DNA from: an uncultured Methylococcaceae bacterium
GTDB lineage: Bacteria; Pseudomonadota; Gammaproteobacteria; Methylococcales; Methylomonadaceae
Assembly: GCA_903917345.1 (NCBI GenBank)
Contig: CAIXAE010000036.1
Location: 43,604 to 75,603 of the forward strand
Reading direction: 5' to 3'
Length of the DNA stretch: 32,000 nt
The position numbers were made by a program, and so were the translations under genes. Position 1 is the stretch's first letter; each line of letters starts with the position of its first letter. Shown piece after piece: positions 10,014 through 29,861 of the stretch. The notes under the pieces were generated by a model that was not told the DNA's origin, did no database searches, and saw nothing but the letters and a program-made list of their open reading frames with translations.

Positions 10014-10175
10014 TAAAACAGTGGTAGATTCCCTATTATTATTTTAAAAAGACTGTGATATGGCTTGAAAACTCATCTCTTTAAATTTAATACCGAAAAT
10101 TAACTAAAAATATCCGTTAAAATTATAAATAATCTCCTATATTAATATTACGTTTCGAAAGTATGGTTTTCTCCT

Positions 10176-17564: not shown

Positions 17565-17780
17565 ATATAATCAGTGAATACTAATATATAAATCAGTAAC
17601 AATGAAATCTTTCTTCTCTAACCTGCTTTAAGATTTTGCGCTAGTTAGAAAAAACAGTATATATCCTGAAAACGACAACTTATGTCCGTTACAATAAAAA
17701 AAACATGCTTTTCTTTTGATGTGTCTAACTAGACAGGTTAGATCACTAGATTTTGTGGGCATTTCTAGGATTTTGGGTAT

Positions 17781-18360
17781 CTTGCTGAAACTTAGGGTGG
17801 CGTGCTGAAACCTGAGGTTGGGCATTAAAACTTCAGCTTTTGAAATGCGGTACTGGTTTTAATGTTAGAACTTTTAGTGCTGGTTTGGCACTTAGGTTTG
17901 CGTTATTAAACCTAAATTTACTGGCTGGCACATGAGTTTTAATATTAGGCCGCAAGTTTAAACACTGACACAATAACTTGATTGTTAAACCTTAGGTTTA
18001 AGTCCGGGGCTTTTTGCTCGAGTATTGGAACTTACATTTGAATACGGGTACACAAGTTTGGCTACTGGAGCAAAGGGTTGAGTCTTGGTACAAAAGTTTT
18101 AGTGTGGGCATTCAAGTTTTATTCCTACCAAATAGAATTGGAGTTTGGCCCCAAGATTTTAAGAGTGGCACCCTAGTTTAATTGTTGATATTTAGGTTTA
18201 AGCGCCCAACCCTAGAATAAAGGCTTGGACCTCAAGTTTGAATGCTACCCCTCAAGTTTACATACTGGGACAGATAATTGAATGTTAGATCGTGTGTTTA
18301 ACTTTTAGGGCTGTTTTGAATCACGCACTAAAAAAGCTTTAAGTGTTGCACCTAAAGCTT
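17781..18360. repeat. array of 29 degenerate 20-bp tandem units in perfect register (non-coding)
   Basis: Written as 20-mers from 17781, the columns align with no indel. By hand count, col 18 is T in 27/29 units, col 6 is T in 24/29, col 19 is T in 24/29, col 11 is C in 23/29, and cols 7 and 8 are each G in 17/29. The approximate consensus is ArTnyTGGnACytAaGTTTr. Two related but out-of-phase copies may lie at 17741-17780. Confidence 0.85.
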
Positions 18361-18371: not shown

Positions 18372-18986
18372 TTAGTTGACGATTTTTAAAACGGGGACAC
18401 AAAATTCGGTAGTACCTGACGGAGTCACGGCAGCCACTCTGACGGCTATAATGCTACCGGGGTCTAAGCCTTTCATTACATAAGAAGCAGACGTTGTCAT
18501 CTCAACTGTTTTCCAATCTGTCTCTAATGTAGGAATACCTCCATTACCTATCTGCCAAATGTAAACACCAGCTGCGTATATGGCTTTGGTGATAAATTTA
18601 ACCTCACCTGGATGAACTCCATCAACCACAGATAATATTTGCTTGGTTACGGGAGGTAACTCTCTACTAATATTAAAACCACTACTTAAAAGCTTAGTTT
18701 CATCGCCATTTGCCACTTGATTAACATATTGCGCATACACTCTAATTATATTATCTAGCGCCGTTTCTTTATCATGCATTATTGATTTGGCCGTTTGGCT
18801 GCCATCGTCAGCGGCTATAACGGCTGCTTCTAACGCATCAATGGCTAAAGTAAACTCAGCCAAAGGAATATAAGGTTGTGTGTAAAAAGTATTAGCCGTC
18901 ATTTTGACAACAATATTGCGGCTAGCAATGATTTTTTCGCGGATAGGAAACTTAACAATATCGATTAGTGCTCTTAGAATCTTCAT
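18372..18986 (-). CDS. hypothetical protein with a C-terminal fibronectin-type-III-like beta domain
   Basis: 204-aa ORF. The C-terminal ~90 aa (VHPGEVKF..YIWQIG..DWKTV..YVMKGLDPGSIIAVRVAAVTPSG) has the FN3 strand pattern. The N-terminal half is helical and unassigned. Confidence 0.5.
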   Translation of the reverse strand: MKILRALIDIVKFPIREKIIASRNIVVKMTANTFYTQPYIPLAEFTLAIDALEAAVIAADDGSQTAKSIMHDKETALDNIIRVYAQYVNQVANGDETKLLSSGFNISRELPPVTKQILSVVDGVHPGEVKFITKAIYAAGVYIWQIGNGGIPTLETDWKTVEMTTSASYVMKGLDPGSIIAVRVAAVTPSGTTEFCVPVLKIVN

Positions 18987-19140
18987 GATCTTTTCCTGTA
19001 GTTAAATGTTTAAAGTGGTTTGTCACGACACTCACTATAGGCTACTTCCTGAAATATAAACTTTTATTTTCAATAATTTACAAAAAACATCAATGATTAT
19101 GCTGTTATTTTCGGCTATCTTGCTGATAAGTTACAGTTAT

Positions 19141-20277
19141 TTAAATTTCTTCCAAGGAATACCTTTTTTGATTAAGGGAGTATTTGGCGGCTTTAATAGC
19201 CGATAAAGGCACACGCAAAACCGTTTTATCTTCTACTTTTGGATTTAAAGCCGCGTTGGCAATGTTAACCATGTCATCCGCGCTCAGCGTTAAGGCTGTC
19301 GCATCTATAAAACTGACAAACCCTTTATGTACCAGATCTTTATTTTTATTTAACGTAATAATCACACTAGACACATTGCGTCTCCAACTAAACAGATCTG
19401 TTGGCAGTTTAATGACAGATTCAATCCAGTCTTCATCAACGATCATTTTTTTGATTTTTGCATCATAAGACCCTTTATCTAAGAATCTTGTGGGTAATGC
19501 CAATAACACTTTTCCCTGTGCATGCGTATGAAATAAGCCAAACTGTAGCCATAATGATTCCATCGTATATTTAGCATTTTCAACATTCAGCAACTTATAA
19601 TTAACCTGCTCAAGCTTTACTAATTCTTTCGCTGTAAATTTTGGATGATACTCTGGGGTAATCAGCACAAGATCGGCATTTTTGGGTATTTGATCAGGAT
19701 CTAAGAGATCATTCATATAAGAATAGGTTCCTGTTACCCCTTTTATAGCCATTAACTTTTTGCCGATGTCTGCCAGGCTGCGGTAATATTCAGTTAACTC
19801 AAGCTTTTCGGCATTCAACCCCCAACCCAACTGACCCAGACTCGCACAGGGGATAAACACCTGTTTTTTAGTATCGTGTTTAGTTAAGGCAAGCATCAAC
19901 GCCGAGATACGTTGGCCGTCATAAGCAGGGCGAAACAGAGCGCCAAACTGCTCATAATAATCAACCACCTCATCAGCAAATAATGAGAAATCATCAATAT
20001 TAGCCACTTCTTTAAGCAACTTAGCTAAGCCACTTTGAGAGGGTAATCGACTACTATGTTCTGTTCTTAGCACATGATTTTCTTGTTGTTTAAGCACGGC
20101 CAATAATCTAGGCGCCTGCTCTTCAAGTGGTAAATCAACAAGCGCCATAAACGTTTTAGGATCTGCTTTATAAGAACGCACCATGGATAAAAAAGTATTC
20201 ATAGTGCCAGAATGCCACCACCCTCCCGTAAATATAATGGACGGTGAAAAATGCTCTAATGCAGATAATATATTCAT
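19141..20277 (-). CDS. HsdM/N6-adenine-methyltransferase-like protein with degenerate motifs I and IV
   Basis: The C-terminal half matches the N6_Mtase pattern (LLALPTRFLDKGSYDAKIKKMIVDEDWIESVIKLPTDLFSWRRNVSSVIITLNKNK..FIDAT..YSLNQKRY). Motif IV reads DLVLITPEY instead of NPPF/Y (19648-19659). Motif I reads FIPCASLGQLG instead of DP.cGsG. Confidence 0.65.
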   Translation of the reverse strand: MNILSALEHFSPSIIFTGGWWHSGTMNTFLSMVRSYKADPKTFMALVDLPLEEQAPRLLAVLKQQENHVLRTEHSSRLPSQSGLAKLLKEVANIDDFSLFADEVVDYYEQFGALFRPAYDGQRISALMLALTKHDTKKQVFIPCASLGQLGWGLNAEKLELTEYYRSLADIGKKLMAIKGVTGTYSYMNDLLDPDQIPKNADLVLITPEYHPKFTAKELVKLEQVNYKLLNVENAKYTMESLWLQFGLFHTHAQGKVLLALPTRFLDKGSYDAKIKKMIVDEDWIESVIKLPTDLFSWRRNVSSVIITLNKNKDLVHKGFVSFIDATALTLSADDMVNIANAALNPKVEDKTVLRVPLSAIKAAKYSLNQKRYSLEEI

Positions 20278-20291
20278 TAATACTTCCCCTC

Positions 20292-20519
20292 TTAATCGTC
20301 AAACAAAGGAGGAGTCAATACACAACGAGTTCCATTATTTGCCAAGGGCGTCACAATGCCCCGCGCCTCCATCTCCTCCACAATGAGTGCCGCGCGGTTG
20401 TAACCTATTTTAAATTCACGCTGTACCGCAGATATTGAAGCTCTACGTGATCGGGTAACAAATAATACTGCGGCTTCGTATAAAGGATCGTTTTCGGAGT
20501 GAGTTTCAGTTGTTGTCAT
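20292..20519 (-). CDS. stand-alone FtsK-gamma-domain winged-helix protein
   Basis: [48 protein letters not shown] closely parallels the FtsK/SpoIIIE gamma domain (DpLy.eAv.fV......S.S.lQR...IGYNRAAr....mE..GiV.p). It lies 14 nt upstream of the MTase-like gene. Confidence 0.75.
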
Positions 20520-20570: not shown

Positions 20571-20656
20571 ATCAAAACGACAAATCGCGTCGTCTTTAAC
20601 TCTATTTTCTATGAATTAATTTTTTAGTGTTATTCGACTTAGTTTGTCGTTTTGAT
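20571..20656. promoter_or_regulatory. 14-bp perfect inverted repeat (candidate operator pair) in a divergent promoter region
   Basis: atcaaaacgacaaa at 20571-20584 and its exact reverse complement tttgtcgttttgat at 20643-20656, separated by 58 bp. The pair lies between the divergent FtsK-gamma and phosphatase genes. Confidence 0.5.
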
Positions 20657-20697
20657 CTGGATAATAGGCACTTCTACTTTCATGCGTGAGAATTGAA

Positions 20698-21555
20698 ATG
20701 CCGTCAATAATTAAAAAACTCCCTGCCAATATCCACGGTAAAGATTATGTAATCGGTGATTTGCATGGTTGCCTTGATTTACTTGAACGCCTCTTACAAA
20801 AGGTAAACTTTAATGCTCAGCATGATCGTTTATTTTCTGTTGGAGATTTAATTGATCGCGGCCCCTACCCTTTAAGTTGCTTACAACTTTTGCATAAACC
20901 CTGGTTCTTCGCTGTTAAAGGTAATCATGAAGCCATGTTATTAGATTGCATTACGGAATATCTTCCGACAAACACTCTACCCAATACCACAGATTTTGAA
21001 GACAGCGACTTTATTTACAATGGTGGGGAGTGGATTTATAAATGGATAAATATAGAGAATCAATTCATAGCCACTGAATTGAAAGATGCCTTGAGTGCCG
21101 TATTTAAATTACCCTTAATATATATCGTAGGCACGGGGGAATCGCGATTTCATGTGATTCATGCTGAATTAACTAAACCTAACCCGTTTAATCATGATGA
21201 GATGGTTTGGCTAGATAGTGATATTGACCAATGGTATGCGGAAAACAGCATAACAACCGAAGTTGAACAACGCTTATTGTGGAGTCGTTCACTGATGCGC
21301 TTTGATGCTGCTGGCGATTATCCTGCTAAAGTACAAAAGGGCCTTTCGACAACTTTTTGCGGACACTCCATAACAAAAACACCCAAGCAGTTTTTATCCC
21401 ATGTGTGTCTCGATACTGGGGCATTTATGTCTATGAATGGCAACACTGACTTCGGTCTTTCTCTTTATGATGTCAAAGAATCACAGTGTTTATCGACGGC
21501 TTATCATCAAGAGGAAATATCTGTTACAAATCTTTTCATAGAAAAAATAAATTGA
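20698..21555 (+). CDS. PPP-family metallophosphoesterase (PrpA/PrpB or lambda-phosphatase-like Ser/Thr phosphatase)
   Basis: Motifs GDLHGC, GDLIDRGP and GNHE are present in the canonical order. The ORF track starts at GTG 20686, but ATG 20698 (MPSIIKKL) is equally plausible. Confidence 0.85.
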   Translation: MPSIIKKLPANIHGKDYVIGDLHGCLDLLERLLQKVNFNAQHDRLFSVGDLIDRGPYPLSCLQLLHKPWFFAVKGNHEAMLLDCITEYLPTNTLPNTTDFEDSDFIYNGGEWIYKWINIENQFIATELKDALSAVFKLPLIYIVGTGESRFHVIHAELTKPNPFNHDEMVWLDSDIDQWYAENSITTEVEQRLLWSRSLMRFDAAGDYPAKVQKGLSTTFCGHSITKTPKQFLSHVCLDTGAFMSMNGNTDFGLSLYDVKESQCLSTAYHQEEISVTNLFIEKIN

Positions 21556-24317: not shown

Positions 24318-25502
24318 TTAAAAATCCATCAACAACCCAGGTATGCCTACACTCTGAATATGCTGGGCATTGGCGCCTTCTTCATACGCCAGTAATGTTT
24401 TATCTTTTTGCCACAATCTAAAAGCCAAGGCATAAGACAACACTCTAATAGGATAATCTCGTGGGAGTTGTTGTAAATAAGGTTGAATTGTAAAAAAATC
24501 AGTGGCGCCGTATTGATCCATAATAAAGCGTAAGCCCCCATTAGTAGGGCCTATGTTGTAAGCCAATAAACCCAAAAAAAGATCATCGTGCATTTGGTGC
24601 AAATAATATTTAAAGGTTGCGGCCGCAAGATAGGCATTATGCCGATGATTCTTTTCTGACAGTTCTTTTTCTGCTAACACTTTAGCCACTTCTGCTCTGA
24701 CTGATTTAGGGGCTTGCGTTATCTGAAATAAGCCCTGCCCGCCATCGGCACTGTCTCTAGGTAAAAAAGACGACTCTGTCGCGGCAATGCCCTGCAATAT
24801 ATTAAGATCGATATCAAAAGCAGTCGCCGCCGCTTTAATCTCTGCGTCATACAATGCGGCTCTTGTTAAGATAACTTTAACTTGTGGCACATCAAAGCGT
24901 CGATAAGCCGCATAAACTTGATGTGCTAACGTGACACGACCGGCCTCTTGTTTACCCCCTAATAACGTACGAAGATGCCCTCTCGCTTGGGATGATTGAT
25001 CCTGAAAAGTTATCCATCCAAACAACACCGCTAAACCGACCGCTAATACGGGCGCACCCCAGATAATAGAATGTCGTTGTAACCAGTGACGTAACCACCA
25101 CCAAACAATCAAAAAAAGTGCCGTTATTAAAATAATGCCCAAAACACCTGCGGCAAAAGGTAATAAACTGGTTAAAAAATGCGTCCCAGAGAACCATGTC
25201 GCTGAATAACCTAACACGATAATAATGGCGGCAATGGCGGCTGTTACCAGCCCTACTATTTCTATAAACAATCCGATTAAGCGATGTCGTAACTTAAGCT
25301 TAGCGTCAGGAAGAGTTGATGTTGACGCTTTAGATACTTTGGTTACTTTAGAGGCTTGAGTGACTGTCTTTTTTGCAGAGACCGCTGATTTTTTAGGGGC
25401 TGATGCTGCCTTATCAGCGGCCTTAGGTTTAGCAACCCTAGGTTTGCTCACTCTTGGCTTGGGTGTTTTGATTGGCTTTGAGGGATTATCTGGCGTATTC
25501 AT
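24318..25502 (-). CDS. membrane-anchored lytic transglycosylase (SLT domain) with a Lys/Ala/Pro-rich N-terminal tail
   Basis: SLT catalytic motif GIAATESSF..GGQGLFQIT..AYNIGP. Four predicted TM helices. N-terminal tail KPIKTPKPRVSKPRVAKPKAADKAASAPKK. Confidence 0.8.
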   Translation of the reverse strand: MNTPDNPSKPIKTPKPRVSKPRVAKPKAADKAASAPKKSAVSAKKTVTQASKVTKVSKASTSTLPDAKLKLRHRLIGLFIEIVGLVTAAIAAIIIVLGYSATWFSGTHFLTSLLPFAAGVLGIILITALFLIVWWWLRHWLQRHSIIWGAPVLAVGLAVLFGWITFQDQSSQARGHLRTLLGGKQEAGRVTLAHQVYAAYRRFDVPQVKVILTRAALYDAEIKAAATAFDIDLNILQGIAATESSFLPRDSADGGQGLFQITQAPKSVRAEVAKVLAEKELSEKNHRHNAYLAAATFKYYLHQMHDDLFLGLLAYNIGPTNGGLRFIMDQYGATDFFTIQPYLQQLPRDYPIRVLSYALAFRLWQKDKTLLAYEEGANAQHIQSVGIPGLLMDF

Positions 25503-26567
25503 CTAGCGCTCTATTGAACCTAATGCTAAATAAGCCACTGCGACCGCGGGTGCACAATCAGCCGGCGTTAAGTCTAAGGGGGTTTCGGTTTGCGAGCATA
25601 ACGCAGAGAAATCACAATAAGAAGCACCGAGCTGTTGAGCGATATCTTTAACTAAAAATCGTCCAATACCTGCACCCACTAATGTTAAGGGTTGTGTAAT
25701 CGTTACATCGCTATGCTTAAGACGATATTCACACGCTTGTTTAATTTTTTGCAGCTGTTGAGTCCGTATATTGTGAGCGAATGCTTGCCAACGGGGCAAG
25801 TCAGACTTCGTAAAATCACTGCCGATCATACGTGATAAGCGTCTGGCACTGGCTACAATTGTTTTTTCTGCGCCATCGGCAGTATCCGTTTGATCATGAT
25901 GCTCGTTAAGCTCACCCGTAACGCGATACACATCAGCCATGGTGGCAAAGTATTCCGCCATTACCCCTATATTTTGCCCGTGATCAATAGCCGTTTGGGC
26001 AACGGCCATCACCGCTGATCTAACAATACCGGTATAAATCAGTTCTTGAGAGACTAAGCGTTGATAATCTGAATAACCTTGCGCCAGCACTTGATCGTTG
26101 TGTAATAACAAAATATCCGTTGTGGTACTGCCTATATCCACAAACAGCCCATTGCTGATTTTCTGGGCTGCAAATGAGGCACTGGCTAACCAATTAGCGG
26201 ATGCCACCGCATCATAATCTGATATTTGTATTTGTGTTGCCTGTATAAAACCTAAAGTCCCTGCATAAATAAGGCAGTTATCCTTGGGCAATAAGCGCTG
26301 TAGGGCCGCGGTTATTTGTTGCACCCCCTCGTGTCTATCTGCGAATAAATCAACCAACTCGCCCGTCATAGTGACAGCATGTTTACATTGATTGACGGGA
26401 GCCTGTTGCAAAATAGTTTTTACAGCGGATTCTAAATGATCTAAGCCTTTCCACAACTGACAGGGTTGTTGATAGACAGCCAGCACTTTGCCAGCCTTAT
26501 CAAGCAACGCCGCTTTAAGATGCGCGCCGCCGACATCCCATCCCAGGATATTAATCTGTTGAACCAT
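25503..26567 (-). CDS. ASKHA-fold hydantoinase/oxoprolinase-family protein of the H4MPT-linked C1-transfer cluster
   Basis: Phosphate-1 motif ILGWDVGGAHLKAA and later FVDIGSTTTDI. The position within the fae/mch cluster matches the conserved methylotroph gene set. Confidence 0.7.
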   Translation of the reverse strand: MVQQINILGWDVGGAHLKAALLDKAGKVLAVYQQPCQLWKGLDHLESAVKTILQQAPVNQCKHAVTMTGELVDLFADRHEGVQQITAALQRLLPKDNCLIYAGTLGFIQATQIQISDYDAVASANWLASASFAAQKISNGLFVDIGSTTTDILLLHNDQVLAQGYSDYQRLVSQELIYTGIVRSAVMAVAQTAIDHGQNIGVMAEYFATMADVYRVTGELNEHHDQTDTADGAEKTIVASARRLSRMIGSDFTKSDLPRWQAFAHNIRTQQLQKIKQACEYRLKHSDVTITQPLTLVGAGIGRFLVKDIAQQLGASYCDFSALCSQTETPLDLTPADCAPAVAVAYLALGSIER

Positions 26568-27606
26568 CCCTCACCTTTAATGTAATAGTTTGCTGCTTTG
26601 TCATATTGAGTCTCGGTTGACCGTCTAATAACGCTAGAATATTCTGCACCCCATTGATCCCTAAGGCTGATTGTATACCCACAAAAGAGGTGGTTAAGCG
26701 CGGATTAATTTCTAATACAAAAGTATGCATGGGCGTTTTTATTAAATCTATTCCCACATAGCCCCATAAATCAGGTATTGCTTGAGCAATCTGGCCGATT
26801 AATTTAATAAACTCATTTTGCTCAGACGATACATTAACGCTGATAGCCTCTAAGTGGTACTGCTGATCATATAGCGTAAAGTGTTGCTGATTAACACTGA
26901 GTAACCACGCTTTACCCGCTTTAAACAAACACGACAAACTGAGTTTTTCGCCCTTTATGTGGGGCTGGATAATGTAGTCACCTCGACTTAAACCCATCTG
27001 CTTAAGGCTATCGATCGTAGGTAGAACATAACTATCCATACACCCTACGCCCGCAACGGGTTTAATAATCCATTGTGTGCACGCTTCTGTACTTATTTCC
27101 TGTAACAACGCATTTAACTGCTGAGGTATATCTTCTGCATCGGGTTGATAGGGCCACGTCGGCACCGTGCTTATTTGATGCTTTTTAAAATGCAAATAGC
27201 TATTAAACTTATTACCTGTTAAAGCAACGGCCGTAGCTGGGGAAGTTAATAACTGTTTTTTAGCGTGTTCAACGATTAAACATAATTTATAGAGTATATC
27301 GTCAAACTCAGGTGCCACAGGCCAAACAGCAGCGCATTGCGCAGTATTGCGTATAAATTCCGTATAACAATCCTGCTCTGAATCAATAATCACCGTAGCA
27401 AAACCCGCTGTATTTATGTGCTGTTGCAGTCGTACATCCAACATCACGACTACAGATACATGAGCGTAATGTGGCTGTTGCATTAAGTCTCGGAAACTCT
27501 CTAACAACGCTTCCAACATTAAGCGCCCCTCTTGCAACAACGACTCGGGCAGGGCTTGCTTATTTAAGCCGCCCCCCGTGATATACTCAAATACTAATAC
27601 ATTCAT
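26551..27606 (-). CDS. ATP-grasp family protein (H4MPT/methanofuran-cofactor-biosynthesis type)
   Basis: MNVLVFEYITGGG N-terminus and a C-terminal ATP-grasp core (WGYVGIDLI..VLEINPRLTTS). Overlaps the downstream gene by 17 nt. Confidence 0.7.
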   Translation of the reverse strand: MNVLVFEYITGGGLNKQALPESLLQEGRLMLEALLESFRDLMQQPHYAHVSVVVMLDVRLQQHINTAGFATVIIDSEQDCYTEFIRNTAQCAAVWPVAPEFDDILYKLCLIVEHAKKQLLTSPATAVALTGNKFNSYLHFKKHQISTVPTWPYQPDAEDIPQQLNALLQEISTEACTQWIIKPVAGVGCMDSYVLPTIDSLKQMGLSRGDYIIQPHIKGEKLSLSCLFKAGKAWLLSVNQQHFTLYDQQYHLEAISVNVSSEQNEFIKLIGQIAQAIPDLWGYVGIDLIKTPMHTFVLEINPRLTTSFVGIQSALGINGVQNILALLDGQPRLNMTKQQTITLKVRDGSTD

Positions 27607-27647
27607 GAACGCATTTTATCATCAGAAGTACGCAAGCCATTTTAACG

Positions 27648-28325
27648 ATGAAAATAATTCCAGTCCTTGATTTAAAAAATGGTTTAGTTGTGCACGCTAA
27701 ACAAGGCATGCGAGACGCCTATCAACCTATTAACACCACCTTATGCCAAGACTCCGACATTTATAAAGTCATTGAAGCCTTTTTATCACTTTATAAATTT
27801 GACACTTTTTATATTGCCGATTTAAATGCCATTACTTTACAAGGTGATCATGATGATTTGATTACAGCGGTAGTGACTGCTTATCCCCAACTACAATTCT
27901 GGGTAGACAGGGGTTATCAAAAAACCCGTGATTATCCCCGTAATTATTTACCCGTATTGGGCAGTGAATGTTTTACGGATACCAACATTGAGGAGCTTAG
28001 AGACTTTAATGAACGTTTTATTCTATCTTTAGATTATGCTCAAGCAGGCGCTTTAGGGGCAAGCAGTATTCTGATAAAACCTGAGTTGTGGCCAGAAACA
28101 GTGATTATCATGACCATGTTTCGGGTGGGTAGTCAATTAGGGCCCGATGTGGATAAATTAAGCACATTCTGTACACAATATCCCCATAAAAAATTTGTTG
28201 CCGCGGGTGGAATAAGAAATATTGCTGACTTACAGTCTATAAAAGCATTAGGTGTGCAACACGCTTTACTAGCCAGCGCCCTACATTCTGGCACGATTAA
28301 TAAAGCTGATATCGCTAATCTTTAG
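27648..28325 (+). CDS. HisA/HisF-family (beta/alpha-barrel) protein of the H4MPT cluster
   Basis: MKIIPVLDLKNGLVVHAKQG start and C-terminal AAGGIRNIADL phosphate-binding motif. Confidence 0.75.
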   Translation: MKIIPVLDLKNGLVVHAKQGMRDAYQPINTTLCQDSDIYKVIEAFLSLYKFDTFYIADLNAITLQGDHDDLITAVVTAYPQLQFWVDRGYQKTRDYPRNYLPVLGSECFTDTNIEELRDFNERFILSLDYAQAGALGASSILIKPELWPETVIIMTMFRVGSQLGPDVDKLSTFCTQYPHKKFVAAGGIRNIADLQSIKALGVQHALLASALHSGTINKADIANL

Positions 28326-28327
28326 GC

Positions 28328-28360
28328 AAAAAAATACCCCGGCAAGCCGAGGTATTTTTA
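28328..28360. terminator. bidirectional intrinsic terminator between the convergent HisA/F-like gene and fae
   Basis: Stem ataccccgg (28334-28342) pairs with ccgaggtat (28347-28355) with one mismatch and a loop of caag. An A-run flanks it on the left and a T-run on the right. A second small hairpin gatgcc-ctaa-ggcatc lies at 28374-28389. Confidence 0.55.
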
Positions 28361-28396
28361 ACACTCTTAAGAAGATGCCCTAAGGCATCAACTCAA

Positions 28397-28915
28397 TTAA
28401 CCCGCTACGTTTGCAGCGAATGGGTGTTTTGCAGTACCTTTAGCAGCAACAACTTCAGCAGCAGTTGGAGTACCCGCTACAGCGCGTTGGATAGCTTCTC
28501 TTGTTGCTTGGTAGTTGAATTTTTCGATTAATGAATCGTCTTCAGCTTGCCAGTGAATGAATACACCAACAGAGATGAATAAATCATCAGCTTCGTCAGC
28601 TGGGATAGTACCGTCTTCAACTGAATCAGCAACAGCCATAGCAACTGCACGTTGTGCTGGGCCAAACATTTGAACAGCTTGTTTTGCGCCTTTGATTGTT
28701 ACTTTGTTGAATAAGATTGTAGCTGGTTTAACTAATAAGTTAGGAGCAACAACTGCTAATAAAGTAGAGAAACCATCTTTGTTGTTAGTTAAAGCTGTTG
28801 CGAATGCAGTTTCAGCAGCTGAACCACGTGGGCCAATGATTAAATCGATGTGAGCGATTTCGTTGCCTTCGCCTACTAAAGATTCGCCTACGCGCATGTT
28901 AGTAATTTTTGCCAT
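28397..28915 (-). CDS. fae: formaldehyde-activating enzyme
   Basis: The full-length 172-aa sequence ([32 protein letters not shown]...FIHWQAEDD) is characteristic of Fae. Confidence 0.95.
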
Positions 28916-28997
28916 GTTATAAAATTCCTATTGAAAAAAGTAAAATCGAGATAATTTCGAGCTTTTGTGTGCTACCAACATTATGTTGGAAGATTTT

Positions 28998-29861
28998 TTA
29001 AGAAGAGCTATGTTTAATAGTATCTTCCAAAAATACGGTAAATACGGTTGCAACGGTTAAATCTGCCATCGTACCTGGGTTTAAACCCTGCGATTTAAAC
29101 TCGCTATCGATACTATGCAGCAACGGCAAAGTGAGTTCAGGCCTATCTACTTTAGACAACTCATCTGATAATTGAGTCATCTTAAGCGCTATCATCCCAT
29201 TATACTGACTGCCATATTTTCTTTCGACATGACTATCGGGAAAGCGGCACAATAAACTTACGAATACAACTAATGCAGACCAATCCTGCTTGCACCATTT
29301 CTTATTGGCATTGTAATAGATTGGCAGGGCAAAATCAAAAATATCTTGATAATTTGTAACAAATTGCAAGGCAATTCTATCTCTAAAACTAGCCAAACGC
29401 ATCGCTTCAATTAAATTAATCGATGGCTTTTCAGACACATCAGCTTGATCAGCATTACCTAAACCACCCGGGGACGCCAAACTAATGGCCTTAAACACCC
29501 AATCGGCATCATTTAAAGTCGTGTGACTTAAAACCTGCGCTAAAGCTTGTTGTAGCGACATGTCTGGCGTTTTTATGCCCATCGCTTTAATTAATGGCGC
29601 ACATAACAATAAAATACCTAAATTAGTATTGCACCCTACCGCTTCCCGCGTGGCTTTAACGGCGTAATATATTTTTTCACCTAAGGTGTAATCCGGGTTA
29701 CATAAGGCAAAAGCACTGACTTTAGCACTGATTCTAAAGTCTTCTACCGTCATATCATGACCATCAGCATAAACACTGACATTACCCGGTTTAAAAGCTT
29801 GCAACTCCACTTCGCAGGCTTGTTGATACAAATCACTCATTAAATTTGGAGAAATACTCAT
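28998..29861 (-). CDS. triphosphoribosyl-dephospho-CoA synthase (CitG/MdcB)-like protein, H4MPT-cluster type
   Basis: EVELQAFKPGNVS..GCNTNLGILLL..ASPGGLG motifs. Position between the RimK-like gene and fae, as in methylotroph H4MPT clusters. Confidence 0.8.
   Translation of the reverse strand: MSISPNLMSDLYQQACEVELQAFKPGNVSVYADGHDMTVEDFRISAKVSAFALCNPDYTLGEKIYYAVKATREAVGCNTNLGILLLCAPLIKAMGIKTPDMSLQQALAQVLSHTTLNDADWVFKAISLASPGGLGNADQADVSEKPSINLIEAMRLASFRDRIALQFVTNYQDIFDFALPIYYNANKKWCKQDWSALVVFVSLLCRFPDSHVERKYGSQYNGMIALKMTQLSDELSKVDRPELTLPLLHSIDSEFKSQGLNPGTMADLTVATVFTVFLEDTIKHSSS

What the first reader, a model, noticed from the sequence alone, without database searches (positions are those of the whole stretch)
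18372..20519. FtsK-gamma wHTH + methyltransferase-fold protein with ablated catalytic motifs + FN3-like protein
Seen: a 75-aa protein is essentially just an FtsK gamma domain (..[29 protein letters not shown]..). It sits 14 nt upstream of a 378-aa protein whose C-terminal two-thirds follows the HsdM/N6_Mtase pattern. In that protein motif IV is TPEY (19648-19659) instead of (N/D)PP(Y/F), and motif I is IPCASLG instead of DPxxGxG. A 204-aa FN3-like protein follows after 154 nt.

Established: the FtsK gamma domain is a sequence-specific DNA reader (KOPS), and motifs I and IV are needed for SAM binding and adenine methyl transfer.

Inference: the methyltransferase fold may have been repurposed as a non-catalytic DNA or base-flipping sensor, or it may have a different chemistry, targeted by a detached wHTH. 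I do not recognise this trio as a described system.
Basis: partly seen in the sequence, partly recalled or inferred. Interest (0 to 1): 0.6.

Follow-up and report, generated by a model that had tools for sequence, protein, structure and literature searches.

The report
Orphan dead HsdM with free FtsK-gamma
A two-gene operon in a methanotroph defence island pairs a free-standing FtsK-gamma DNA-reading domain with an orphan type I methyltransferase-subunit look-alike that has lost its catalytic signature; the neighbouring FN3 gene is a separate unit, so this is a rare variant of a known protein kind, not a three-gene system.

Summary
The 75-aa ORF is only an FtsK gamma domain (Pfam 5e-24). The 378-aa ORF has the HsdM fold (pLDDT 89; Foldseek 1e-15) with TPEY and IPCASLG at motifs IV and I. 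The 204-aa ORF ends in an FN3 domain (Z 12.6).

The trio does not hold. In 22 metagenome loci, FN3-gene homologues never sit beside either other gene. They sit beside 20/21/40-bp periodic arrays, as an earlier report of this scan on this same window noted.

The 378-aa protein belongs to a four-member clade lacking motif IV. That clade is nested in a rare, unnamed ~425-aa HsdM paralogue family ("M-prime": YDGAAG, [QTES]PPxG[LV]R). In two loci, M-prime follows a half-HsdS ahead of a complete type I R-M plus Ppl. Here it also lacks the C-terminal helix its M-prime relatives keep, and the genome has no HsdS or HsdR.

Independent linkage to the gamma gene rests on one indirect clue: a diverged relative apparently carries both genes on one 19,810-bp contig. 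There the methyltransferase-like gene is broken and the gamma gene intact.

Best reading (about 0.35): a non-methylating DNA-binding or decoy module.

The parts
20292..20519 (-). 75-aa stand-alone FtsK-gamma winged-helix protein (gamma75), first gene of the pair
   Evidence: Pfam PF09397 E 5e-24. 61% identical to the gamma domain of the host's own 772-aa FtsK. It is the only stand-alone gamma ORF among 141 Methylococcales genomes searched. Three other 74-75-aa homologues at 95, 69 and 72% identity occur in metagenomes.
19141..20277 (-). 378-aa orphan HsdM-fold protein (mt378), 14 nt downstream of gamma75 behind an AGAGGGGAAG ribosome-binding site
   Evidence: N6_Mtase E 6e-19, C-terminal two thirds only. 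AF2 pLDDT 89.3, pTM 0.91. Foldseek hits to HsdM 3lkd, PacII M1/M2, EcoKI and EcoR124 M at E 1e-15 to 1e-11 and TMq 0.70-0.77. It lacks the roughly 35-45-residue C-terminal tail that its M-prime relatives P0018, P0019 and P0024 keep.
19648..19659 (-). Motif IV position reading TPEY instead of (N/D)PP(Y/F)
   Evidence: Alignment to 3lkd and to 87 relatives. The fragmented orthologue of the sister lineage has the identical ITPEYHPKF.
19834..19854 (-). Motif I position reading IPCASLG instead of DPxCGSG
   Evidence: Residue C144 is polymorphic (C/S) among 15 population variants.
20571..20656 (.). Perfect 14-bp inverted repeat (ATCAAAACGACAAA) flanking the divergent promoter region between gamma75 and the phosphatase gene; a probable shared operator
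   Evidence: The exact 14-mer occurs only 3 times in the 2.48-Mb genome, all on this contig. The third copy again lies in a divergent intergenic region, with a TTGTCGTTTT partner, next to an operon that encodes a WYL-WCX regulator.
18372..18986 (-). 204-aa helical-bundle + FN3 protein: NOT part of the pair; a separate unit that goes with the array at 17781-18360
   Evidence: None of the 22 homologous loci carries gamma75 or mt378 relatives, and no protein neighbour is conserved. Periodic 20/21/40-bp DNA lies up- or downstream of the homologues.

Best explanation
gamma75 and mt378 form a two-gene operon. gamma75 is a free FtsK-gamma winged helix that keeps the GYNRAA recognition helix and the wing. 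mt378 is an HsdM-derived pseudo-methyltransferase. It keeps the whole HsdM fold and the well-conserved C-terminal half of the catalytic domain (motifs V-VIII, the substrate and DNA face). It has lost the motif IV Asn/Asp and second Pro, the FYTP motif and most of the glycine loop. It also lacks the C-terminal tail that its relatives keep, which by general knowledge of type I enzymes docks HsdM onto HsdS. With no HsdS or HsdR anywhere in the genome, it most likely does not methylate DNA. I propose that it works as a non-catalytic DNA-binding or bait protein in this defence island, with the small wHTH protein as its DNA-reading or released partner. It would be expressed from a promoter under the same operator boxes as neighbouring defence operons. 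Shown: the identities, fold, motif states, orphan status, clade membership and operon layout. Inferred: loss of activity, physical partnership and a defence role.
For: Fold and motifs. The four motif-IV-less proteins (query, P0018, P0027, P0038; 22-33% identical, all intact at 372-412 aa) form one clade (SH-aLRT 98). The clade is sister to a TPPF protein and lies inside the M-prime family, while canonical HsdM forms a separate clade. This suggests long retention after motif loss. Orphan status: no PF01420, no PF04313 and no canonical HsdM in a 99.8%-complete genome. Operon: a 14-nt gap with a strong RBS, and the same layout in L013. All 15 listed population variants are full-length with only 9 variable sites. 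A gamma homologue (69% identical) and fragments of an mt378 orthologue (67-83% identical) all report a longest contig of 19,810 bp. Precedent for methylation-independent use of HsdM as bait: Ronin (bioRxiv 10.1101/2023.04.06.535777). NPPF-to-APPA mutations abolish methylation in type I enzymes (PMC5100572). Island context: TIR-NACHT, kinase, IetA-like AAA and SIR2 genes, with shared operator-like boxes.
Against: In the sister lineage the mt378 orthologue is split into at least two ORFs with an internal replacement and a GKER-repeat indel, while gamma stays intact. The partnership is therefore dispensable there. The pair is very rare: 1 of 36 other same-genus genomes searched, and none of 400 class or 400 phylum genomes carries an mt378-clade gene. 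Window against L013 gives 5 synonymous and 5 non-synonymous changes, which is uninformative. The retained E163 and D190 mean SAM binding, and even some catalysis, cannot be excluded. No gamma gene lies within 9 kb of M-prime in two loci, and no HsdM-like gene lies within 5 kb of 31 viral gamma genes.
Confidence: 0.35

Rival explanations
1. Decaying remnant: mt378 is a relic of an M-prime/type I cassette that lost its partners. It is intact by chance or only recently released from selection, and gamma75 is unrelated cargo.
For: The orthologue in the sister lineage is fragmented on several contigs (P0021 on 8, P0020 on 3). Motifs X, I and IV and the C-terminal tail are all degraded. No HsdS or HsdR is present. 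Distribution is narrow. Synonymous and non-synonymous changes are 5 and 5.
Against: The ORF is intact in all 15 population variants listed, with conservative changes only. The fold prediction is confident. The motif-IV-less state is shared by four intact proteins at 22-33% identity that form one clade. The RBS is strong and the coupling to gamma75 is tight.
Confidence: 0.22
2. Regulator plus cargo: gamma75 is the transcription factor that binds the 14-bp boxes, analogous to an R-M controller protein. mt378 is simply the gene it controls and not a physical partner.
For: It is a small wHTH first gene directly downstream of a perfect inverted repeat that flanks a divergent promoter region. Related boxes lie upstream of the kinase operon and in a second divergent region 24 kb away. 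gamma stays intact where mt378 decays.
Against: A WYL-WCX regulator, of the kind I recall (not checked here) as BrxR/CapW-like inverted-repeat binders in defence loci, is encoded in the operon beside the third box and is the more conventional candidate. From general knowledge, FtsK-gamma reads a non-palindromic 8-mer as a trimer, not palindromes.
Confidence: 0.15
3. Still an enzyme: mt378 binds SAM and methylates, or otherwise modifies, a substrate using a non-canonical site (T-P-E-Y with a carboxylate), targeted by gamma75 in place of HsdS.
For: The motif II acid and motif III Asp are retained, and the residues of the motif I loop are mostly small (C, A, S, G). The parent M-prime family conserves [QTES]PP[FWLM]G[LV]R, which looks selected, not random.
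Against: The motif IV Asn/Asp and aromatic residues are needed in type I enzymes (APPA mutants are dead; PMC5100572). Within the clade the site is not conserved (TPEY, GLSEYY, LTLDNT, LTPNAS), which is unlike an active site. The Pfam match misses the SAM-binding half.
Confidence: 0.1
4. Mobile-element function: free gamma75 activates XerCD or competes with FtsK for an island that integrates at dif. mt378 is unrelated.
For: From general knowledge, an isolated gamma domain can activate XerCD-dif recombination. gamma75 keeps a basic VTRSRRAS patch aligned with the host FtsK's VTESRKAS.
Against: No dif-like site is present in the window. No integrase or Xer gene was seen near the pair.
Confidence: 0.05

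Closest known systems
HsdM, the methyltransferase subunit of type I R-M systems (Pfam PF02384; structures 3lkd, 7vru, 2y7c, 7bst)
   Same: Same overall fold, covering both the N-terminal helical domain and the gamma-class MTase domain (TMq 0.70-0.77). The C-terminal catalytic-domain motifs are conserved (LFRGGYDAK-like, LP, LNKNK, FIDA).
   Different: No (N/D)PP(Y/F), no FYTP and a degenerate glycine loop. It also lacks the C-terminal tail its M-prime relatives keep, has no HsdM_N Pfam match, and has no HsdS or HsdR in the genome.
Unnamed ~425-aa HsdM paralogue family ('M-prime'; examples are Legionella pneumophila 'N-6 DNA methylase' P0028 and Moellerella plasmid WP_277850701)
   Same: Full-length similarity (E down to 3e-44). 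The query clade is nested within this family in the tree. Like the family, it lacks the FYTP motif and the motif IV Asn/Asp.
   Different: The family keeps YDGAAG and xPPxG[LV]R plus the C-terminal tail. In two loci it sits behind a 200-aa half-HsdS and in front of HsdM-HsdS-Ppl/TrlF-HsdR. The query has none of these and has a gamma wHTH upstream instead.
Ronin decoy system (RonA + HsdS + HsdM; Silas et al., bioRxiv 10.1101/2023.04.06.535777)
   Same: A type I methyltransferase component used without its nuclease and independently of methylation, encoded next to a small protein, in genomes that mostly lack type I R-M.
   Different: Ronin HsdM keeps NPPF and needs HsdS, and its small partner is a 61-aa membrane toxin. 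Here there is no HsdS, and the small partner is a soluble FtsK-gamma wHTH.
FtsK gamma domain (PF09397), the KOPS reader and XerD activator at the C-terminus of FtsK
   Same: 56-69% identity to the gamma domains of Methylococcales FtsK proteins, with the GYNRAA helix and NG-R wing conserved.
   Different: It is not attached to a translocase motor. In 140 other Methylococcales genomes every match lies in an FtsK-sized frame or a frame cut by a contig end. In viral contigs, gamma occurs mostly at the end of 360-450-aa proteins or at the start of giant proteins.

Membership tests
FtsK_gamma (PF09397) | Profile match above the curated cut-off | tested here: met
   84.2 bits against a cut-off of 30.6, covering profile positions 2-62 of 63.
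FtsK/SpoIIIE translocase | Gamma domain fused to the alpha/beta motor | tested here: not met
   The open frame is 80 codons, and the host FtsK (772 aa) is encoded elsewhere on contig C10.
Active type I HsdM (m6A MTase) | HsdM fold / N6_Mtase domain | tested here: met
Active type I HsdM (m6A MTase) | Catalytic motif IV (N/D)PP(Y/F/W) | tested here: not met
   TPEY at residues 207-210.
Active type I HsdM (m6A MTase) | SAM-binding motifs X (FYTP) and I (DPxxGxG) | tested here: not met
   A-YDG and IPCASLG occupy these positions. The motif II Glu and motif III Asp are kept, so actual SAM binding is untested.
Active type I HsdM (m6A MTase) | C-terminal helical tail that docks onto HsdS (docking role from general knowledge) | tested here: not met
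   The query ends about 35-45 residues before its relatives P0018, P0019 and P0024. The AF2 model ends after helix 358-363.
Active type I HsdM (m6A MTase) | Cognate HsdS, usually with HsdR, in the genome | tested here: not met
   No PF01420 and no PF04313 match in the 99.8%-complete genome.
M-prime HsdM-paralogue family (unnamed) | Full-length homology and placement in the tree | tested here: met
   (quick ML tree; the query sits on a long branch of 1.51).
M-prime HsdM-paralogue family (unnamed) | Family motifs YDGAAG and [QTES]PP[FWLM]G[LV]R | tested here: not met
M-prime HsdM-paralogue family (unnamed) | Half-HsdS gene upstream and a type I R-M downstream | tested here: not met
   Compare the window with L066 and L074.
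Ronin | hsdS + hsdM + ronA (small transmembrane toxin) | tested here: not met
   No HsdS is present. The upstream small protein is FtsK-gamma, not a membrane peptide, and no other small ORF of note lies in the gaps.
MADS (mad1-mad8) | MAD2 equivalog score and eight-gene operon | tested here: not met
   NF047738 scores 10.9 bits against a cut-off of 720. There are no MAD3/4/5-type genes, and the kinase and AAA hits are at domain level only. System make-up is taken from PMC13662399.
Fibronectin type III fold (204-aa protein) | Seven-strand beta sandwich superposable on FN3 | tested here: met
   Z 12.6, rmsd 1.8 A over 85 residues. There is no Pfam match by sequence.

The most novel reading that the evidence does not exclude
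A Ronin-like decoy in which the dead HsdM look-alike holds the free FtsK-gamma protein. Under this reading, phage anti-restriction proteins that attack type I methyltransferases would bind the bait and release gamma75. Free gamma75 would then occupy KOPS-like sites or XerD and jam the host's FtsK-dependent chromosome segregation and division, aborting the infection. This would be the first use of an FtsK-gamma domain as a defence effector or self-DNA reader.
Probability: 0.06. Interest if true: 0.8.

Novelty: new variant of a known kind. Interest (0 to 1): 0.38.

Why it matters
Databases label proteins like this 'N-6 DNA methylase', and automated annotation would count this one as an orphan methyltransferase. 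The work here separates three layers. The first is canonical HsdM. The second is a rare uncharacterised paralogue family that has replaced the catalytic Asn/Asp and sits with a half-HsdS in front of complete type I systems. The third is a small sub-clade that has lost the motif altogether and, in this genome, all type I partners. If the sub-clade is functional, it would add a case of a restriction-modification subunit recycled as a non-catalytic immune component, as in Ronin, with an unprecedented partner in a free FtsK-gamma domain. If it is merely decaying, it documents how such cassettes erode. Either way, the FN3 gene and its repeat array should be studied as a separate entity.

Tried and rejected
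- **Trio as a system: rejected.** Across 22 FN3-gene loci I found no gamma or HsdM-like neighbour and no conserved protein neighbour.
Alignments A2 and A3 were too diverse for pattern scans. The plasmid tblastn gave only the Moellerella M-prime locus, and phages gave no hit.
- **Profile A2 across 400 class genomes** mostly hit ordinary HsdM proteins. A stricter rerun across 400 phylum genomes found one M-prime locus.
- **Fused gamma-HsdM 'Rosetta stone': none** among the 150 best homologues.
- **dif site: none**.
- **MADS, BREX and Pgl membership:** only domain-level hits.
- **Is the phosphatase/AAA/136-aa operon a conserved partner?** AAA homologues in two other genomes lack all the other genes. 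The question stays unresolved.
- **Protein Atlas:** only generic N6_Mtase clusters.
- **Tandem Repeats Finder:** did not report the degenerate 20-bp array. Autocorrelation did.
- **Literature:** no paper links FtsK gamma with methyltransferases in defence.
- **Unpublished genomes:** the tallies include G355 and G477. No specific claim rests on them.
Full report
**What is there.** They are separated by 14 nt and 154 nt. The window is contig C36:43604-75603 of a 2.48-Mb, 99.8%-complete genome. A near-identical sister contig is titled as an uncultured Methylococcaceae MAG. The neighbours are defence-type genes. Downstream lie a TIR-NACHT-TPR protein, a RyR/TrkA protein and a Hanks kinase. Divergently upstream lie a PPP phosphatase, a tandem-AAA IetA-like ATPase and a 136-aa protein.

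**The 75-aa protein.** It is an FtsK gamma domain and nothing else (PF09397, E 5e-24).
- It is 61% identical to the gamma domain of the host's own 772-aa FtsK.
- It is 51-69% identical to the primary FtsK gamma match of each of the other 134 Methylococcales genomes with a match, so it is not a recent copy of the host gene.
- In those 140 other genomes, every gamma match lies in an FtsK-sized frame or a frame cut by a contig end. The stand-alone form is unique to this genome in that sample.
- A word-index search of 5.8 billion proteins found only four small homologues, all 74-75 aa, at 100, 95, 69 and 72% identity. They keep the GYNRAA helix and the wing, apart from R42H in the 69% form.

**The 378-aa protein.**
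- Pfam sees N6_Mtase only over profile positions 97-303.
- An AlphaFold model built on 38 homologues is confident (pLDDT 89.3, pTM 0.91).
- The whole model superposes on HsdM subunits: 3lkd, PacII M1/M2, EcoKI and EcoR124 (Foldseek 1e-15 to 1e-11, TMq 0.70-0.77).
- Strand order and motif positions are canonical: strand 1 VFIP, strand 2 KLELTE, strand 3, then strand 4 ADLVLI followed by TPEY.

I aligned the protein to 87 relatives. The motif states are:

| Motif | Canonical HsdM | Query |
|---|---|---|
| X | GEFYTP | A-YDG |
| I | YDPxCGSG | FIPCASLG |
| II | GQE | LELTEYY |
| III | GDTL | NDLL |
| IV | NPPY/F | ITPEYH |

Motifs X, I and IV are lost, while the ribose-binding acid (motif II) and the motif III Asp remain. 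The protein also stops about 35-45 residues before its relatives P0018, P0019 and P0024, which continue into a C-terminal tail. From general knowledge, not tested here, the C-terminal helices of HsdM pack against HsdS.

**Its relatives.** An exhaustive HMMER search of 1.84 billion representatives gave 255 hits.
- The full-length hits form a rare family of about 425 aa that I call M-prime. It shows YDGAAG at motif I and no FYTP. Motif IV reads [QTES]PP[FWLM]G[LV]R, so the catalytic Asn/Asp is systematically replaced.
- Members are annotated as 'N-6 DNA methylase' or 'type I restriction enzyme M protein', for example in Legionella pneumophila. No NCBIfam or PADLOC model names the family.
- Two loci could be read: a Moellerella plasmid and genome G776, whose M-prime proteins are 70% identical. 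Both show half-HsdS (200 aa), M-prime, canonical HsdM, HsdS, a Ppl/TrlF ATPase and HsdR.
- In a quick ML tree, the query groups with P0018, P0027 and P0038 (SH-aLRT 98). These four have lost even the PP: TPEY, GLSEYY, LTLDNT and LTPNAS. The clade is sister to P0019 (TPPF) and lies inside M-prime, with canonical HsdM as a separate clade. The query sits on a long branch, so placement is not secure.
- If the placement holds, one origin for the motif loss is not ruled out, and four intact proteins at only 22-33% identity argue for retention after the loss.

**Orphan status.** The genome has no HsdS domain, no HsdR N-domain and no canonical HsdM. Only one of 36 other same-genus genomes carries the gene, at 99% identity. 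One of 400 phylum-level genomes carries an M-prime gene. In the 400 class-level genomes searched, the strongest matches were ordinary HsdM-sized frames.

**Is it a system?**
- The FN3 gene is not part of it. Its 22 metagenomic homologues (37-84% identical) have no gamma or HsdM-like gene nearby and no conserved protein neighbour.
- Many of those homologues, like the window copy, abut DNA with strong 20-, 21- or 40-bp periodicity, either upstream or downstream. This agrees with the earlier report e1-3731630 on this same window.
- For the gamma/mt378 pair, the direct evidence is the 14-nt gap with an AGAGGGGAAG ribosome-binding site and the identical layout in the sister MAG.
- One indirect clue extends this. 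A 75-aa gamma homologue (P0194, 69% identical) and two fragments of an mt378 orthologue (P0195, P0021) all report a longest contig of 19,810 bp.
- In that lineage the orthologue is broken. Residues 156-197 are replaced, a GKER-repeat indel sits at residue 253, and the frame ends at about residue 333. ITPEYHPKF is identical there, and gamma remains intact.
- In the window's own population, all 15 listed alleles are full-length with nine conservative variable sites.
- Elsewhere the two domains do not travel together. I found no gamma within 9 kb of M-prime, no HsdM-like gene within 5 kb of 31 viral gamma genes, and no fusion among the 150 best homologues.

**Regulation.** The exact 14-mer ATCAAAACGACAAA occurs three times in the genome, all on this contig.
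- Two copies form an inverted pair flanking the gamma/phosphatase divergent promoter region.
- The third lies 24 kb away in another divergent region, between a SIR2 gene and an operon encoding a WYL-WCX regulator. It again has a TTGTCGTTTT partner.
- A related box precedes the kinase operon.

This suggests a shared regulon across the island. The WYL protein is the conventional candidate binder, and gamma75 is the alternative.

**Mechanism.** The most likely reading (about 0.35) is a non-methylating HsdM-derived scaffold that works with the free wHTH as a DNA-binding or bait module.
- The precedent is Ronin, where HsdMS acts independently of methylation as a decoy for anti-restriction proteins, in genomes that mostly lack type I R-M.
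- Loss of the motif IV Asn and aromatic residues abolishes methylation in type I enzymes.
- Rivals are a decaying remnant (0.22), regulator plus cargo (0.15), unusual chemistry (0.10) and a Xer/FtsK-related mobile-element role (0.05). No dif site was found.

**Verdict.** The 'ablated methyltransferase' reading is supported at the sequence and fold level. The trio is not supported, and the pair is plausible but thinly supported. I rate it a new variant of a known kind, of moderate interest.

Noticed in passing
window 20571-20584, 20643-20656, 17666-17679; L072 9986-9999 and about 10076-10089 (contig C36:39985): Operator-like boxes that share AAAACGACAA occur as inverted pairs in two divergent intergenic regions 24 kb apart, and singly upstream of the kinase operon. 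The exact 14-mer occurs only three times in the genome. A WYL-WCX regulator (L072:11153-12202) is encoded next to the second pair, beside a SIR2 gene and a DUF6717 gene.
   Followed up: partly
window 17781-18360; L014-L031 flanks of the FN3-gene homologues: Homologues of the 204-aa helical-bundle + FN3 protein are accompanied by DNA with 20-, 21- or 40-bp periodicity. The array lies downstream in L013, L014 and L025-L029, and upstream in L015-L020, L022 and L031. There is no conserved protein neighbour.
   Followed up: partly
L066 (Moellerella plasmid NZ_CP120975, 281435-292011) and L074 (G776:C11): A recurrent six-gene layout: half-HsdS, an M-prime HsdM paralogue with EPPM at motif IV, canonical HsdM, HsdS, a Ppl/TrlF PHP-ATPase and HsdR. 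An uncharacterised accessory methyltransferase-like pair sits in front of a type I R-M that has an embedded Ppl.
   Followed up: partly
proteins P0020, P0195, P0021, P0196 (ENA metagenomes): The sister-lineage orthologue of the 378-aa gene is split into at least two ORFs. A GQGKER(KGKER) repeat expansion sits at the break near residue 253, and residues 156-197 are replaced.
   Followed up: partly
L075-L105 (IMG/VR contigs): Viral gamma-domain relatives are mostly the C-terminus of 360-450-aa proteins. Some lie at the start of open frames of 1,400-2,200 codons (L079, L080, L082, L083), and a few are small proteins of about 135 aa (L093, L094, L099).
   Followed up: no
window 20686-21555 against L013 4062-4931: The phosphatase gene is near-identical to the sister MAG up to residue 166 and then diverges sharply (19 amino-acid changes, different C-terminus). 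The AAA gene is only 88% identical, while the gamma and methyltransferase-like genes are 99-100% identical. This suggests a recombination breakpoint inside the phosphatase gene.
   Followed up: no
L025 2795-9635 against window 24318-29861: In a related metagenome contig the FN3 gene sits immediately upstream of the same six core genes that lie at 24318-29861 in the window, on the other side of that block. The FN3 gene plus its array seems to move around this neighbourhood.
   Followed up: no
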